A stretch of 64,000 nucleotides of DNA from a virus. Lineage: Duplodnaviria; Caudoviricetes. Position numbers and translations under genes: made by a program. The DNA is taken from the IMG/VR virus record IMGVR_UViG_3300014204_000113, positions 123,989 to 187,988 of that record; one strand, given 5' to 3'. Below are positions 1,339 through 43,644 of the stretch, in pieces. The notes beneath the pieces are model-generated. The model saw only the letters and a list, made by a program, of their open reading frames with translations. It ran no database searches and had not been told where the DNA came from. Numbering within the stretch: the stretch's first letter is position 1; each line of letters begins with the position of its first letter.

Positions 1339-1545
1339 TTGACAGAAAAATTAATTTCAATGAAGGGTGGTAACAAACCTTCAATAACAAGAGAAACAAT
1401 AAGATTAATGAAAGAGGAATTACCATACATCCTTGAATATTTTCCTATTTATGCTGAAATGACAAAAGCTAAATTTGAGGCTTTAAAAGAGAAAGGGTTT
1501 ACTGAAATTCAGGCATTAGAATTGTGCAAGGGTTTTATGTTATAA
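1339..1545 (+). CDS. hypothetical protein
   Basis: AAGGAG SD before TTG; fits + strand gene run. Confidence 0.65.
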   Translation: MTEKLISMKGGNKPSITRETIRLMKEELPYILEYFPIYAEMTKAKFEALKEKGFTEIQALELCKGFML

Positions 1546-1554
1546 GGAGAAATT

Positions 1555-1737
1555 ATGGGTGATTATGCTTTGCCTTCTATTTATGAAAGATGCGGCTGGA
1601 AAAAAGACGAGGTTTATCTTCATTCCTTGCTTGAAAGATGTGCAGAAGGACTTGCAGCAGCAACTCAATATGGCGCAGGTAATTGGTCTGAACTAATTAA
1701 AGAAATTTATAGGGTGATAAATGTCCAAGAAGACTAA
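1555..1737 (+). CDS. hypothetical protein
   Basis: AAGGAG SD, tightly packed. Confidence 0.55.
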   Translation: MGDYALPSIYERCGWKKDEVYLHSLLERCAEGLAAATQYGAGNWSELIKEIYRVINVQED

Positions 1738-2422
1738 ATCCAAGAAACCTAAAGGTATCTCTCCAGAAGAATTCTTAAAAAACCTTAACACTCTAGATTT
1801 GTTGGATGGGAATTTTTCTGATAATGATGCCTTAGCTCTTATGAAATTAGCTAAAGAATCAATCAAAGATAAAAGTGGACCTTTTAATTTTTTAGAAATT
1901 GGAACATGGAAGGGGAAATCACTTATTTGTCTCTCTGTTATAATAAGTAAATTCCCAGAAAGTAAAATTTTTGCTATAGACCATTTTAAAGGTACATTTG
2001 GAACAAACGAAGAACAACTTGCTAAAACTAATGACATATTGACAACTTGTAAAAATAATTTAAAAATAGTAAATGCTAGTGATATTGTTTGTCTATTAAA
2101 TATGAATTACTTTGATGCAATCAAAATATTAAAGCAAAAATTTTTTGACTTTATATATATTGATATGGACAATAGTTATCAAGTAATGAAAAGTGTTTTG
2201 TGTGATTCTAGAAATTTAATTAAAAGTGGAGGAATGATATGTGGAAGAAATTTAATTGCAGATTATCTAGATGTAAAAGAAATTATAGACTCTAATCTTA
2301 ATAAAGAATATTTAGAAGAATCAAAAATGCATCCTGGAATTATACGATCTGTCTATGATGTTTTTGCAAATAAATATCAAAAAATGGATAATAGTTCTTT
2401 TTGGTATTGGATTAATAATTAA
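1721..2422 (+). CDS. class I SAM-dependent methyltransferase (Methyltransf_24-like)
   Basis: LEIGTWKGKS, AIDHF, FDFIYID, KSGG motifs. Confidence 0.8.
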   Translation: MSKKTKSKKPKGISPEEFLKNLNTLDLLDGNFSDNDALALMKLAKESIKDKSGPFNFLEIGTWKGKSLICLSVIISKFPESKIFAIDHFKGTFGTNEEQLAKTNDILTTCKNNLKIVNASDIVCLLNMNYFDAIKILKQKFFDFIYIDMDNSYQVMKSVLCDSRNLIKSGGMICGRNLIADYLDVKEIIDSNLNKEYLEESKMHPGIIRSVYDVFANKYQKMDNSSFWYWINN

Positions 2423-2434
2423 TAATATTTGGTA

Positions 2435-2560
2435 ATATCCAACTGGATATTGTGTTGTAATGTTCTGTGTTGTGTGGCGCTGTAGTGTAATGTTAAGTCC
2501 TGTAGTGTGGCGTAGTGTGTTGTTATGTGTTCTATTCTAAGGGGATTCTGTATTGAATCC
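2435..2560 (+). ncRNA. 5-nt-period TGT-NN array (18 units, 2451-2540) flanked by hairpins; putative guide RNA
   Basis: 13 TGT units plus GGC, AGT, CGT and two TCT; hairpins ATATCC/GGATAT (2435-2450) and GGATTC/GAATCC (2543-2560); intergenic, directly upstream of RAMP-like gene. Confidence 0.7.
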
Positions 2561-2586
2561 AAAATAAATTTAAGGAGAATTAAATA

Positions 2587-3153
2587 ATGAAAATTAAAGT
2601 TACAATTCAAGGAACAGTTCCAATTTTATTTAATCGTTTTGCAGAAGAGAATGAAGTTAAAGTTGCTTCTGGAATTAATCCAGTTCAAGGAGGACAAAGA
2701 GGAACGCCTAGAGAACAAGCAGAAAAGAAACTATATCAAGACGTGGATGGGAATTTGTTTCTTCCAAGTCCTATGTTATTTTCTTGTTTAGTAGATGCTG
2801 GTAAATTCCATAAAGTGGGAAGAAATAAAGTTACGACTCAGAAGACTTCTTTAGTTCCTGCCGGTATATCTGTTGAAGAATTAATCATTCCGTTTAATAC
2901 TAAAGATTGGGAAATTGATTCTAGAAGCGTTGTGATACCATCTACTGGTGGTAGAATCATGTGTCACAGACCCCGGCTTGATGAGTGGCAATTAACTTTC
3001 ACTTTGGATGTTGATACAACAATGTTTGATCCTAAGTTTGTTAGGACTCTTATGGATGATGCAGGCAAGAAATGTGGCTTGGGTGATTATAGACCTAATC
3101 GTAAAGGGCCATTTGGTAAATTTGTTGTGATTAATTGGGAAGAAGAAAAATAA
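2587..3153 (+). CDS. stand-alone RAMP/Cas7-like protein (putative Vipr-type RNA-guided effector)
   Basis: N-terminal strand KVTIQGTVPIL, LFLPSPML..CLVDAG, RPR..W.LTF, C-terminal G-rich loop GLGDYRPNRKGPFGKF; AAGGAG SD; adjacent 5-nt arrays. Confidence 0.7.
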   Translation: MKIKVTIQGTVPILFNRFAEENEVKVASGINPVQGGQRGTPREQAEKKLYQDVDGNLFLPSPMLFSCLVDAGKFHKVGRNKVTTQKTSLVPAGISVEELIIPFNTKDWEIDSRSVVIPSTGGRIMCHRPRLDEWQLTFTLDVDTTMFDPKFVRTLMDDAGKKCGLGDYRPNRKGPFGKFVVINWEEEK

Positions 3154-3181
3154 TAAAAAATAAGATCAAGGATGGAGAATT

Positions 3182-3487
3182 ATGAAATTTGAATTAATGA
3201 AAGAATTAAACGAATTAATTCTTTCTATTGACAACCCGGTTGAAACAGCAACAGATTGGCTTTTTGATTATCAAACCTATAGTTATAATTATATAAGCGC
3301 AGAAACAAAAAATAGAGTTGATAAACAAGAAGAATGGTTAAATTTACATCAACAACCTATTCTTTTAGGCGAGGAAATACAAACTGAAGAAGAAACGCTT
3401 GAGGAAATACTTGATGAACTTGAATCTTGGCTTCCTGCTCTTCAATCTGCTATTTGGGCAGTAAAAGAACTAAAGAAGGAATATTGA
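3182..3487 (+). CDS. hypothetical acidic protein
   Basis: GGAG SD, ORF track. Confidence 0.65.
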   Translation: MKFELMKELNELILSIDNPVETATDWLFDYQTYSYNYISAETKNRVDKQEEWLNLHQQPILLGEEIQTEEETLEEILDELESWLPALQSAIWAVKELKKEY

Positions 3488-3497
3488 GGGTAAATAG

Positions 3498-4054
3498 ATG
3501 ACAGTATGGTTCAGTGGAGACCAGCATCTTTCGCATGACTCTAAACATGGAGGAATAATCCAATATTGTAATCGTCCATTTGTAAGTTTGAAAGAAATGA
3601 ATTCAGTAATTATTGATAGAATGTTAGAAAAAGTTCATAAAGGAGATACATTATATTCTTTAGGCGATTTAACTTTCAAAAAAGATGTTGCTTTAAAGTT
3701 TGTTGAAATAATTAAAAAAAATAACATCAATTTAATTTATATAAGAGGGAATCACGATAAAAATATCCTTCCTATTTTGAACACAGAAGGAATAAAAGTA
3801 TATGATTTATTAACAATAAATATTGCAAAACAACCTATAGTTTTGTGCCACTATGCGATGAGGACTTGGGACAATGGAGTTGCCATAACTCTTGGCAACT
3901 CCATTGTCACAGTCACCACACACTATCTCCGCAAGGTAAACAACTAGATTGTGGGGTGGATGGATTTGATTTTTATCCAGTTTCTTATGATACGGTAAGA
4001 AACATTATGAAGACAAGACCTGATAATTTTAATTTAACGAAAGGTAGAATTTAA
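3498..4054 (+). pseudogene. calcineurin-like metallophosphoesterase, frameshifted near 3870-3878
   Basis: GDQH, LGD, GNHD, LCHYAMRTW in one frame; SWQLHCHSH and DCGVD in another frame ending 4054. Confidence 0.75.
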
Positions 4055-4166
4055 AATTCCTACTAGAAACTACCTCTCAGAAGGTTATTTTCACGCCTGA
4101 AAATGCGTAGATATCACCCAGAATGAACGATAATTTAAAAGAGGTAGTTTGATAGGTAATTTTAAA
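4050..4166. other. long interrupted inverted repeat / structured RNA candidate
   Basis: TTTAAAATT-CCTA-AAACTACCTCT pairs with AGAGGTAGTTT-TAGG-AATTTTAAA; inner ATTTTCA/TGAAAAT hairpin. Confidence 0.55.
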
Positions 4167-4201
4167 AAACGACCAGTTTTGAGGCTAATAATGATGATTG
4201 T

Positions 4202-4303
4202 GGTCTGGTTAGGTTAGGTGAGGTGAGGTCAGGCTGGGTGGGGTGCGGTAAGGTGTGGTATGGTAGGGCGAGGGAACTGACTCATTTACAGATGAGTCAG
4301 TTC
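4202..4303 (+). ncRNA. GGY-NN array (14 units) with 12-bp 3' hairpin; putative guide RNA
   Basis: 14 consecutive GGT/GGC trinucleotides at exact 5-nt spacing (4202-4271); GAACTGACTCAT/ATGAGTCAGTTC stem 4274-4303 followed by ATTTT. Confidence 0.8.
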
Positions 4304-4345
4304 ATTTTAAACTAAGAATCTTACGGATGTTAATAAGGAGGATTG

Positions 4346-4789
4346 ATGGACTTTCTTGTTCTCTCAAGGCAACAATCTGAATTGATTGACCCAACTAAAA
4401 GCCATATTATCATATCAATTACAGACCCATTTGATGTTCCTGCCAATTTATTTCCGAATGATAATTGCAAAGGAATATTGCAATTATCATTCCATGACAT
4501 TGATTCAGAAGTTATAGCAGACAAACATAAATTGGAATTGTTTACGAGAGAACAAGCAAGAAAAATTCTTGATTTTGTTGATGAAAATATAAACAATATC
4601 GAATTGATTATCGTAGCGTGTGAGGCTGGTATCAGTAGATCATCATCTGTTGCCGCTTTTTTAAGTGAGATATATAATGGACATGATTCTGGTTTCTTTA
4701 GAACTCATATTCCAAATAGGTTTGTTTTTAAACAATTGATGTATGAACATGAGAATATAAATATAGAGGACATGTTTTTAAACAATTGA
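4346..4789 (+). CDS. protein tyrosine/dual-specificity phosphatase-like protein
   Basis: IISITDP, FHD, CEAGISRS (CX5R) motif. Confidence 0.8.
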   Translation: MDFLVLSRQQSELIDPTKSHIIISITDPFDVPANLFPNDNCKGILQLSFHDIDSEVIADKHKLELFTREQARKILDFVDENINNIELIIVACEAGISRSSSVAAFLSEIYNGHDSGFFRTHIPNRFVFKQLMYEHENINIEDMFLNN

Positions 4790-4827
4790 TGTATGAACAT
4801 GAGAATATAAATATAGAGGACATGTTT
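4723..4827. repeat. perfect 50-bp tandem duplication
   Basis: 4723-4772 equals 4773-4822, with TGTTT microhomology. Confidence 0.95.
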
Positions 4828-19167: not shown

Positions 19168-20484
19168 TCAAATATCCAACATATTTGCTATCTTATTTTT
19201 GTTATAATATCTTTTGTTTACCATTTCTGAATAAAAAGATTGATGCCATTCTCTATCAAAATTGGCCTTGGTGTTACAAGAGGTGCATAATGTAATTAAA
19301 TTCTTGGGATGGCAATTTAATTTATTATAATCAAGATGGTGAATTGTTAATTTATTATCATATTTTTTATTACATAGTGGATTAAGACACATATAATTAT
19401 CACGCTCTTTAATACTTTCTTTGTATTCTTTATCTTTCCACACACAACAATATGGTTCATAAGATTTACCACCTTGCCAATTATAATTGTTTGAACCACT
19501 TTGTGAAATAGATGATTTTATACTGCCACATTTTCTACATCTATGACCTTGAGAAAAACTATTATAAGAAATAAAAGATATATTTCCACATTCACATTTA
19601 TATTTTAATTTTTGATGACATCCTTTATATTCATTAAATAATGGAACACAACCACCTTCTATAAATTTTTCTTTAACAAATTCTAAACTATGTCTTATTT
19701 TATCTGAAAATTTTATAATCCCACATTCTTTACATCTATGGCCTCGCATAAGATTATCAAATGATGTATAAGAAATATTTCCACAACTGCATTGATATTT
19801 TAATTTTGTTCTAGCATCAATATATTCATTAAAGAGAGGGATGCAACCACCTTCTACAAATTTATTTTTTACATATTCAAGACTGTGTTTGCTATTGATA
19901 TTGCTTCTTTCAATTCCACATTTTCTACATCTATGACCATTACAGAAACCATTGAATGTGATTTGTGATTCATTCCCACAACTACATATATATTTTAATT
20001 TTTGTTGTGCATTTATATATTCATTAAATAATGGGATACATCCTTCTTCTATAAACTTATCTCTTACATATTCTATATCCAATCTTTTCTTTTCTGAAAT
20101 TCTTTTACCAACACAATTTGAACATCTTGATCCAGATTTAAAACTCGAAAAAGTTATAAAAGATATATTTCCACAATTACATCTATATCTCATTTTAGTG
20201 TGGTTATTTTTATAATTATCTTCTAAACATTCACACCCATTATCAATAAAAACTTTTTTGACATAGTTAAAATCTAATTTATAAAGTTCTTTATTTTTAT
20301 CAATATTACAAAATTTACATCCACTACCATTTTTTAAACCATTAAGACTAATTTTTGTTATATGACCATTATTACATTTACATTCAAGTGGAATTCTAGC
20401 ATACTTATATTCATTTTCTAATAAAACAAATCCTCTATTCTTAAATTCCCCCCTTGCTATATCTATAGTTATAATTTTAGACAT
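19168..20484 (-). CDS. HNH endonuclease with tandem Zn-ribbon repeats
   Basis: repeats of GCxPLFNEY..KLKYxCxCGN..F..GHRCxxC; RDNYMC..IHH.DYNK.N..NL.TLC.SC. Confidence 0.8.
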   Translation of the reverse strand: MSKIITIDIARGEFKNRGFVLLENEYKYARIPLECKCNNGHITKISLNGLKNGSGCKFCNIDKNKELYKLDFNYVKKVFIDNGCECLEDNYKNNHTKMRYRCNCGNISFITFSSFKSGSRCSNCVGKRISEKKRLDIEYVRDKFIEEGCIPLFNEYINAQQKLKYICSCGNESQITFNGFCNGHRCRKCGIERSNINSKHSLEYVKNKFVEGGCIPLFNEYIDARTKLKYQCSCGNISYTSFDNLMRGHRCKECGIIKFSDKIRHSLEFVKEKFIEGGCVPLFNEYKGCHQKLKYKCECGNISFISYNSFSQGHRCRKCGSIKSSISQSGSNNYNWQGGKSYEPYCCVWKDKEYKESIKERDNYMCLNPLCNKKYDNKLTIHHLDYNKLNCHPKNLITLCTSCNTKANFDREWHQSFYSEMVNKRYYNKNKIANMLDI

Positions 20485-43430: not shown

Positions 43431-43530
43431 TATTTTCTCCTTTTCTCTTTATAGGAGGTTTTTTCTTTTTATTGTCATCTCTGTGTATCATTTTTGTCAA
43501 CAGAACTTCTAATGGAATTAGGTCTCCCAA
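43411..43530 (-). CDS. 39-aa ORF (MGDLIPLEVLLTKMIHRD...), gapped match to adjacent array
   Basis: GAGGAG SD, TTG start; below ORF-track cutoff. Confidence 0.5.
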   Translation of the reverse strand: MGDLIPLEVLLTKMIHRDDNKKKKPPIKRKGENNDRKQQ

Positions 43531-43554
43531 TTTTTTCTCCTCTAAAAATAAAAA

Positions 43555-43644
43555 ACCATACCCTAGCCTACCCTACCATACCTTACCGTACCAAACCAAA
43601 TCACACCTGACCATACCGGACCATACCAAACCTCACCCCACCAT
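43555..43644 (-). ncRNA. GGT-NN array (18 units); putative guide RNA
   Basis: 16 GGT plus GAT and GCT at exact 5-nt spacing on the minus strand, intergenic, followed by T-run. Confidence 0.8.

What the first reader, a model, noticed from the sequence alone, without database searches (positions are those of the whole stretch)
2435..2586. Array cis to the effector uses TGT instead of GGY
Seen: 18 units, mostly TGT, with NN = GT AA TC GT GT GC AG AA TA CC AG GG AG GT TA GT AT AA. It has 6-bp hairpins on both sides and, like the 4202 array, ends in GGG plus a hairpin. It lies in the 5' leader of the RAMP-like gene. Inference: the scaffold rule may be NGY, or this is a lower-affinity autoregulatory leader, or two array classes coexist.
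Basis: partly seen in the sequence, partly recalled or inferred. Interest (0 to 1): 0.7.

Follow-up and report, generated by a model that had tools for sequence, protein, structure and literature searches.

The report
VIPR guide RNA with UGU scaffold
The TGT repeat tract is a guide RNA of the recently described phage VIPR system (a CRISPR-like, Cas7-related DNA silencer) that uses U instead of G at the loosest position of its scaffold, and its variable letters spell a rival phage's version of the methyltransferase gene next door; it is a good new example of a known system rather than a new one.

Summary
Window 2451-2540 holds 18 head-to-tail 5-nt units: 13 exact TGT, position 2 G in 16/18, position 3 T in 17/18. 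GGGG and a 6-bp hairpin follow, then the RBS and a 188-aa gene.

That gene is a Vipr protein, the Cas7-like RAMP of VIPR systems described in three 2026 bioRxiv preprints. The array is its upstream vrRNA.

Read by the published code (NN pairs, one base skipped), the array spells 14 consecutive codons of a rival allele of the adjacent methyltransferase gene (VASKYPSGRVYVI). The phage's own copy matches only 6 of 18 codons (20/36 bases). So this is a guide, not merely a leader.

U at scaffold position 1 is not unique:
- In 60 non-redundant loci of this Vipr clade, position 1 is G in only about 62% of units.
- The closest relatives are U-rich or G-poor.
- The preprint's methods already mention "YNNNG" repeats.

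The genome holds three Vipr paralogs, each beside its own array class (GGT, GGC, TGT). Whether the classes are orthogonal is untested.

The target DNA could not be fetched, so the match is shown at codon level only. This scan had already met VIPR arrays in this genome and NGY-type arrays on other DNA.

The parts
1721..2422 (+). Class I SAM methyltransferase gene (Methyltransf_24). This is the phage's own, mismatched copy of the gene the guide spells. The homologous site is codons 70-87, window 1928-1981.
   Evidence: Pfam E 1.6e-11. The site ranks first among in-frame hits and second overall in a genome-wide scan with the decoded peptide. It matches the guide at 20/36 bases. It is only 71% nt identical to the sister phage, against 88-91% for the flanks.
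2430..2438 (+). Possible extended -10 promoter element (TGGTAATAT) just upstream of the array. This is an inference.
   Evidence: Read from the sequence. The consensus scan did not list it, because there is no good -35. Relatives have a promoter-like site directly before the array, e.g. L031 TTGACG-17-TATAGA.
2433..2452 (+). 5' hairpin (8 bp, loop AACU) overlapping the first unit.
   Evidence: Centroid fold.
2451..2540 (+). vrRNA repeat tract: 18 units of (U>N)-G-U + NN. Units 4-17 are the decoded guide core. The last two units (NN = AT, AA) resemble the 3' ends of the GGT arrays.
2541..2560 (+). 3' end module: GGGG plus a 6-bp hairpin. GGG plus a hairpin also closes arrays A1, D and G of this genome.
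   Evidence: No intrinsic terminator was called anywhere in window 1500-4500.
2572..2577 (+). Shine-Dalgarno AAGGAG of vipr-C, 9 nt before the ATG.
2587..3153 (+). vipr-C (P0001, 188 aa): Vipr/RAMP protein with G-loop CGLGDYR. It has N16 where SUSP1 has H17.
   Evidence: phrog_4652 E 1e-18. PDB SUSP1 Vipr 36pp_D E 1.2e-6. Alignment A1. AF2 pLDDT 85.6. Foldseek top hits are Cas7 of type VII, Csm3 and Cas7-11.
4202..4303 (+). Context: GGT-class vrRNA (14 units) plus GGG and a 12-bp hairpin, 1 kb downstream. It is conserved, with NN differences, in the sister phage that lacks vipr-C.
43553..43642 (-). Context: GGT-class vrRNA (18 units) in front of a minus-strand gene.

Best explanation
The tract is the upstream vrRNA of a minimal one-guide VIPR cassette (promoter, vrRNA, vipr-C; window about 2412-3166). 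The cassette sits directly behind the phage's methyltransferase gene.

Shown here:
- The protein is a Vipr.
- The RNA has the VIPR architecture: a 5-nt period, fixed G2 and Y3, variable NN.
- Read with the published 1-nt-skip code in the sense direction, with the skipped base on the codon wobble position, the NN spell a foreign allele of the neighbouring methyltransferase. The phage's own allele is mismatched.

Inferred from the SUSP1 and P. fulva work:
- The array is transcribed together with vipr-C.
- Vipr-C protomers polymerise one per repeat, sequester each U-G-U triplet and present the NN pairs.
- The filament binds the rival phage's methyltransferase gene during co-infection and blocks its transcription.
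- The guide stays genetically linked to the resistant allele beside it.

U at scaffold position 1 is a lineage habit of this Vipr clade, which has Asn where SUSP1 uses His17 to read G1. Position 1 is the least constrained scaffold position in VIPR generally.
For: Protein:
- phmmer matches the solved SUSP1 Vipr chain at E 1.2e-6.
- R138, D177, R179 and the aromatic residue at 178 of SUSP1 are conserved (residue roles from 10.64898/2026.04.26.720927).
- The confident model matches the Cas7 fold.

RNA:
- 18 units, far beyond chance.
- The 3' end, xxxAT xxxAA GGG plus hairpin, is like the GGT arrays of the same genome.

Target:
- The decoded peptide is V[KN]SVVA[RS][KN]YP[RS]G[RS]VYV[IM][KN].
- The homologous methyltransferases P0004/P0008/P0009 read ILSAVASKYPSGRVYVID and P0005 reads CLAVVASKYPSGRVYVID. 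That is 14 of 18 codon families, 13-14 of them consecutive, at exactly the homologous site.
- The phage's own allele matches 6/18 and the sister phage 9/18.
- Own site 20/36 nt and sister site 21/36 nt, both below the 80% cut-off used in the preprint.
- There is no better self-match anywhere in the genome.

Conservation:
- 41 of 60 non-redundant loci of this Vipr clade have an array ending within 400 nt upstream of vipr on the same strand.
- Position 1 there is G 61-63%, T 16-19%, A 10-13%, C 8-10%.
- The closest relatives are G-poor: L024 has G in 5/76 units in a 60% GC contig (P 9e-7), and L029 has T in 12/15.
- An independent mixed-scaffold guide, the L056 upstream array, matches the gene upstream of vipr in relative L059 at 22/24 bases in codon register, while its own copy matches 20/30.

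Cassette: the array plus vipr-C is absent from the otherwise 88-91% identical sister phage L002.

Literature: the preprint lists 'YNNNG' alternative repeats.
Against:
- The nucleotide match is therefore only bounded, from the amino acids, at 24-31 of 36. It may fall under the 80% rule.
- Units 1-2 of the guide (V, K/N) match no known allele.
- No expression, processing or binding data exist for this phage.
- No conserved pseudoknot tail like that of type II vrRNAs is seen.
- No vap accessory gene belongs to the cassette.
- Nothing shows which of the three Viprs loads this RNA.
- The H17-to-N change does not track scaffold composition: L029 has His with a U-rich array, and SUSP1, with His, still has 24% non-G units.
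Confidence: 0.8

Rival explanations
1. The tract is mainly a cis-regulatory leader. Vipr-C binds the repeats in its own mRNA and so limits its own translation or stability, and any guide function is secondary or absent.
For: The array lies in the 5' leader, and no terminator was called between it and vipr-C. In close relatives the last unit abuts the Shine-Dalgarno sequence (xGCAA ACCAAGGAG..ATG), so a filament would sit on the ribosome site.
Against: The NN letters carry 14 consecutive codons of a foreign allele of the neighbouring gene, which a pure binding platform has no reason to keep. In this phage, 31 nt and a hairpin separate the array from the SD. SUSP1 also has a vrRNA upstream of vipr that is a separate functional guide.
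Confidence: 0.07
2. The tract is a decaying or orphaned array that no resident Vipr loads efficiently: a relic of an acquired cassette.
For: It is the only TGT-class array among the 13 arrays of the genome. Five of 18 triplets deviate from TGT, two of them at G2. The first two guide units match no known allele.
Against: vipr-C is intact with all conserved contact residues. G2 and Y3 are kept in 16 of 18 units (17 of 18 for Y3 alone). T at position 1 (15/18) is a consistent choice, not random drift, in a genome with more A than T. The guide core is uninterrupted over 14 units. The closest relatives carry the same U-rich/G-poor scaffold.
Confidence: 0.1
3. The tract is a chance TG-rich simple repeat or a DNA-level element (G-rich strand structure, protein binding site) unrelated to the RAMP gene.
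For: Tandem Repeats Finder did not score it. No Rfam family matches.
Against: Strict 5-nt phasing is far beyond chance. The position and strand are the same as arrays beside homologous vipr genes in dozens of contigs. The content decodes in codon register. A UGU array cannot form G-quadruplexes.
Confidence: 0.01

Closest known systems
VIPR systems (Vipr protein + vrRNA): type II exemplars Escherichia phage SUSP1 and the Pseudomonas fulva prophage (bioRxiv 10.64898/2026.04.26.720920; structures 10.64898/2026.04.26.720927; satellite competition 10.64898/2026.10.15.759431)
   Same: - A small single-RRM RAMP protein with G-loop and thumb.
- A vrRNA of 5-nt repeats with a fixed triplet and variable NN.
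- One vrRNA directly upstream of vipr.
- A target read with one skipped base falling on codon wobble positions.
- The target lies in a competing phage, and the phage's own genome is spared.
   Different: - The scaffold is U-G-U rather than G-G-Y.
- Asn replaces the His17 that reads G1.
- There is no conserved pseudoknot tail, only GGG plus a short hairpin.
- There is no vap gene.
- There is a single guide.
- The guide sits next to the phage's own allele of the gene it targets.
[quoted passage not shown]
   Same: YNNNG written from the triplet is N-G-Y-N-N, which is exactly the class seen here and across the 80 clade loci. The one-guide architecture also matches.
   Different: The preprint gives no sequences, targets or tests for this class in the text held here. 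It does not describe a U-dominant, G-depleted position 1, or three classes in one genome. I could not assign the clade to one of the seven published types.
Class 1 CRISPR Cas7 backbone filaments (type III Csm3, type VII Cas7, Cas7-11)
   Same: The fold matches (Foldseek E 6e-7 to 1e-4). In both, one protomer binds per RNA repeat length and the thumb flips out bases.
   Different: The period is 5 nt rather than 6. Scaffold bases are read specifically inside the guide. There is no CRISPR repeat-spacer array, cas1/cas2 or large subunit. The pairing is gapped.
TRAP (trp RNA-binding attenuation protein) bound to (G/U)AG repeats
   Same: Triplets spaced by 2 nt in a leader RNA are read by an oligomeric protein. 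This was my first idea.
   Different: The protein fold is unrelated (RAMP, not the TRAP beta-sandwich ring). The spacers carry information here. I rejected this once the Vipr homology was seen.

Membership tests
VIPR system | Vipr protein: single-RRM RAMP with a glycine-rich loop and thumb, homologous to characterised Viprs | tested here: met
   phmmer to PDB 36pp_D 'SUSP1 Vipr protein' at E 1.2e-6 over residues 50-180. Paralog A matches SUSP1 by tblastn at 2e-15 with 97% coverage. AF2 pLDDT 85.6. Foldseek top hits are Cas7/Csm3.
VIPR system | Scaffold-contact residues of the solved structures (H17, R138, D177, aromatic 178, R179) | tested here: inconclusive
   In alignment A1, R138, D177 and R179 are invariant and W178 becomes Y. 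H17 becomes N16, and N is present in at least 90% of 37 clade members. The one changed residue is the one that reads G1.
VIPR system | vrRNA: at least 9 tandem 5-nt units with a conserved triplet and hypervariable NN, beside vipr on the same strand | tested here: met
   18 units at 2451-2540, ending 46 nt before the vipr-C start.
VIPR system | Triplet consensus GGY | tested here: not met
   Position 1 is T in 15/18 and G in 1/18 units; G2 is kept in 16/18 and Y3 in 18/18. The tract fits the published alternative class YNNNG instead.
VIPR system | Conserved structured 3' tail after the repeats | tested here: inconclusive
   GGGG plus a 6-bp hairpin at 2541-2560. GGG plus a hairpin of unrelated sequence also follows arrays A1, D and G. 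No shared tail sequence or pseudoknot was found, and the fold z-score of the leader is only -1.0.
VIPR system | NN spell a natural target by the 1-nt-skip rule, with the skip on wobble positions and no self-target | tested here: inconclusive
   Met at codon level: 14/18 codon families against P0004/5/8/9 at the homologous site. The best self-match is 22/36, no better than shuffled guides. The nucleotide-level count was not obtainable.
VIPR system | vap accessory gene next to vipr | tested here: not met
   The ORF after vipr-C (3182-3487) is 91% conserved in the sister phage that lacks the cassette, so it is not part of it. The preprint says 'typically', so this is not strictly defining.
VIPR system | vrRNA expressed and bound by Vipr; represses target DNA | not testable with these tools
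   Needs sRNA-seq, pull-down and a reporter assay.
CRISPR-Cas | Repeat-spacer array with cas1/cas2 or a multi-subunit effector | tested here: not met
   No such repeats appear in the TRF output. Neighbouring genes are a radical SAM enzyme, a methyltransferase and phosphoesterases.
TRAP-type attenuation | TRAP-fold ring protein and (G/U)AG triplets | tested here: not met
   The triplets are UGU, and the adjacent protein has a RAMP fold.

The most novel reading that the evidence does not exclude
The scaffold triplet may act as a private address. The three Vipr paralogs of this phage would each load only their own class of vrRNA (GGU, GGC or UGU). That would give three insulated RNA-guided channels in one genome and would protect Vipr-C from being hijacked by rivals' GGY solo vrRNAs, the counter-measure shown for SUSP1 satellites.

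Points in favour:
- The classes are nearly pure: G1 in 130/131 GGT units, C3 in 41/51 GGC units, U1 in 15/18 TGT units.
- Each class abuts a different paralog.
- G is actively depleted at position 1 in the closest relative.
- The residue that reads G1 is changed.
Probability: 0.25. Interest if true: 0.7.

Novelty: new member of a known kind. Interest (0 to 1): 0.4.

Why it matters
VIPR was described only in 2026, and all experiments so far used GGY guides. This locus is a natural case where the first scaffold base is U, with an intact partner protein and a decodable target. That makes it a ready test object for how strictly Vipr reads its scaffold.

The same 188-kb phage carries pure GGU and GGC classes beside two other paralogs. 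It therefore offers a three-way natural experiment on orthogonality, which matters for arms-race biology (hijack by solo vrRNAs) and for multiplexed tools.

The locus also adds a further case of a guide sitting next to the phage's own resistant allele of the gene it targets. That linkage is reminiscent of homing elements.

Tried and rejected
- First idea: a TRAP-like leader or a G-rich DNA element. I dropped it once the protein proved to be a Vipr.
- Rfam at gathering and E-value thresholds gave nothing relevant. No hammerhead was called in 20 related loci, although L016/L037 show a CUGAUGAG-like motif.
- A self-target search with all 13 arrays found nothing above shuffled controls for TGT.
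- The antisense reading of the guide gave no sensible match.
- Exact pattern scans of IMG/VR with guide units 1-10 and 7-16 gave zero hits.
- Ten methyltransferase loci from IMG/VR scored at most 21/36.
- The metagenome scan with the methyltransferase alignment returned only the sister phage.
- The GTDB genome scan and the GenBank phage search with P0004 returned nothing.
- 'Relatives' are not available for a virus record.
- H17N as a simple specificity switch was rejected as a rule. L029 keeps His with a U-rich array, and G fraction varies from 7% to 92% among Asn-bearing loci.

Full report
**What is in the sequence**

- Thirteen triplets are TGT. The others are GGC, AGT, CGT, TCT and TCT.
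- Position 2 is G in 16/18 units, position 3 is T in 17/18, and position 1 is T in 15/18.
- The genome has 18% G and 31% T, giving binomial P of 1.6e-10 for position 2 and 2.8e-8 for position 3.
- A period-5 detector makes 17 calls in the real genome (both strands; these reduce to 13 distinct arrays) and none in 20 Markov-shuffled genomes.

- An 8-bp hairpin at 2433-2452 precedes the tract and overlaps unit 1.
- GGGG follows at 2541-2544, overlapping a 6-bp hairpin at 2543-2560.
- Then come AAGGAG (2572-2577) and the ATG of a 188-aa ORF (2587-3153).
- No terminator-like site was called anywhere in window 1500-4500.

**What the neighbouring protein is**

P0001 has no Pfam match and hits only phrog_4652, of unknown function. 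Three further results identify it.
- It matches the PDB chain 36pp_D, 'SUSP1 Vipr protein', at E 1.2e-6.
- An AlphaFold model from 37 homologues (pLDDT 85.6) finds Cas7 of type VII, Csm3 and Cas7-11 as its best structural matches (E 6e-7 and up).
- Notes from earlier agents of this scan on the same genome named the VIPR system and gave me the preprint. I read it and the two companion papers.

According to those papers:
- VIPR consists of a Vipr protein (a minimal RAMP) and vrRNAs made of GGY/NN repeats.
- One protomer binds each repeat and sequesters the GGY triplet.
- The NN pairs read double-stranded DNA while skipping every third base.
- Natural targets lie in competing phages and satellites, with the skipped base on codon wobble positions.

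**The genome context**

The window is the last 64 kb of a 187,988-bp phage contig. Genome-wide I find 13 arrays.
- Eight are GGT arrays, with position 1 G in 130/131 units.
- Four are GGC arrays, with position 3 C in 41/51 units.
- One is this TGT array.

There are three Vipr paralogs.
- Paralog A (genome 83123-83653) lies behind GGT arrays.
- Paralog B (87107-87661) lies amid the GGC arrays.
- Paralog C is P0001, directly behind the TGT array.

So each class abuts its own paralog. Several arrays, including TGT, end in xxxAT/xxxAA units followed by GGG, and some (A1, D, G, TGT) then carry a hairpin whose sequence is not conserved.

**What the array says**

I concatenated the NN with one wildcard between units. 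The array has no self-target: the best match is 22/36, the same as shuffled guides.

Read as codon positions 1-2 in the sense direction, it spells V[KN]SVVA[RS][KN]YP[RS]G[RS]VYV[IM][KN]. In a six-frame scan of the whole genome, the best in-frame hit is codons 70-87 of the methyltransferase gene immediately upstream (window 1928-1981, CLSVIISKFPESKIFAID). At the DNA level that site matches 20/36 bases.

Only a handful of homologues of this methyltransferase exist in the 5.8-billion-protein collection. At the same alignment columns:
- P0004, P0008 and P0009 read ILSAVASKYPSGRVYVID.
- P0005 reads CLAVVASKYPSGRVYVID.

That is 14 of 18 codon families, 13-14 of them consecutive. The phage's own allele matches 6/18 and the sister phage 9/18.

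The array therefore encodes, in VIPR's gapped code and in codon register, an allele of the adjacent gene that this phage does not carry. The earlier agents reported the same logic for the recA and clamp guides of this genome.

The amino acids fix 24-25 of the 36 guide bases as matching and allow up to 30-31. The Ser and Arg codon families decide the rest.

**Is U at position 1 a peculiarity?**

No. I fetched 80 loci of the Vipr-C clade, 60 of them non-redundant.
- 41 of the 60 have an array ending within 400 nt upstream of vipr on the same strand.
- In the closest relatives the last unit abuts the ribosome-binding site, and a promoter-like site sits just before the array.
- Across about 2,600 units, position 1 is G in 61-63%, T in 16-19%, A in 10-13% and C in 8-10%. 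G2 and Y3 defined the units.
- Among relatives at 58% identity or more, G falls to 38%.
- L024 has G in 5/76 units although its contig is 60% GC and its NN positions are 32% G (P 9e-7).
- L029 has T in 12/15 units.
- Even SUSP1's own four vrRNAs carry A or T at position 1 in about a quarter of units.

[quoted passage not shown] YNNNG is N-G-Y-N-N, so the class is already in print, though without tests. This scan has also met NGY-type arrays in other genomes.

There is independent evidence that mixed-scaffold arrays of this clade are guides. The upstream array of L056 (T, A, C and G at position 1) matches the gene upstream of vipr in relative L059 at 22/24 bases in codon register, while its own copy matches 20/30.

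**The protein side**

SUSP1 reads G1 with H17 and D177, G2 with R138 and W178, and Y3 with R179 and pocket residues. In the alignment:
- R138, D177 and R179 are invariant.
- W178 is Y or F in the paralogs.
- H17 is His in paralogs A and B but Asn in paralog C.
- Asn is present in at least 90% of the clade.

This fits a looser or altered reading of position 1. It is not a simple switch, though. L029 keeps His with a U-rich array, and G fraction ranges from 7% to 92% among Asn-bearing loci.

**The cassette**

A sister phage (L002, a 189,632-bp contig) is 88-91% identical in the flanking genes. It has a small unrelated ORF where this phage has the TGT array plus vipr-C (window about 2412-3166). 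Its methyltransferase is only 71% identical.

The ORF after vipr-C is shared with the sister phage, so the cassette has no vap gene. It is a minimal one-guide VIPR module inserted behind the gene whose foreign allele it targets.

**How it most likely works**

Shown:
- Vipr homology.
- vrRNA architecture.
- Codon-register match to a foreign allele.
- Mismatch to the phage's own allele.
- Conservation of NGY arrays upstream of homologues.

Inferred:
- The array is co-transcribed with vipr-C.
- Vipr-C assembles as a filament, one protomer per unit.
- The filament binds a co-infecting rival's methyltransferase gene and silences its transcription.
- The guide stays linked to the resistant allele.

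An additional autoregulatory role of the leader cannot be excluded. It is more plausible in relatives, where the array touches the SD, than here, where 31 nt and a hairpin intervene.

**Verdict**

The tract is a new member of a known, very recently described kind.

The most interesting open point is whether the three triplet classes in this one phage are orthogonal addresses for the three paralogs.

Noticed in passing
window 43553-43642 (-) and 43475-43527: The GGT-class array H decodes to G[DE][FL][IM]P[IM][HQ]V[FL][FL]T[KN].... Its best genome-wide match (25/36 nt) is the N-terminus (GDLIPLEVLLTKMIHRDD) of the gene immediately downstream. This is another guide sitting beside the phage's own mismatched allele.
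   Followed up: partly
window 1727-2411 versus L002:3974-4661: The methyltransferase is only 71% nt identical to the sister phage, while the flanking radical-SAM gene and downstream genes are 88-91% identical. The local excess divergence falls on the gene family that the guide targets.
   Followed up: partly
window 1356-1726: About 370 nt with two small ORFs (1339-1545, 1555-1737) lie between the radical-SAM and methyltransferase genes. The sister phage has no counterpart.
   Followed up: no
L056:1409-1483 and L059:1252-1295: The upstream vrRNA of one Vipr-C-clade phage matches the gene upstream of vipr in a related phage at 22/24 bases (23/30 overall) in codon register, and its own copy only at 20/30.
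   Followed up: partly
L024:404-1468: This relative has four arrays whose scaffold position 1 is G in only 5 of 76 units, in a 60% GC contig. That suggests active avoidance of G, an 'HGY' scaffold.
   Followed up: partly
genome 86984-88623 (L011:4985-6624): Four GGC-class arrays surround Vipr paralog B in a 34% GC genome. The G-loop of B has Ile where A, C and SUSP1 have the Cys that lines the Y3 pocket.
   Followed up: no
L016:2290-2375 (= L037): A hammerhead-like core (GUC GAAAC ... CUGAUGAG) lies just upstream of the vrRNA array. Rfam did not call it at gathering threshold.
   Followed up: partly
window 4723-4827: A perfect 50-bp tandem duplication (2.1 copies, 100% identity) spans the end of the phosphatase-like ORF 4343-4789.
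   Followed up: no
window 19515-20073: There are about 2.8 copies of a 195-bp repeat at 72-75% identity. It may be a repeated coding module on the minus strand.
   Followed up: no
L014:2897-2956 (SUSP1): The fourth SUSP1 vrRNA has G at scaffold position 1 in only 6 of 12 units (A3, T3). So the published GGY consensus is already loose at G1 in the type II exemplar.
   Followed up: partly
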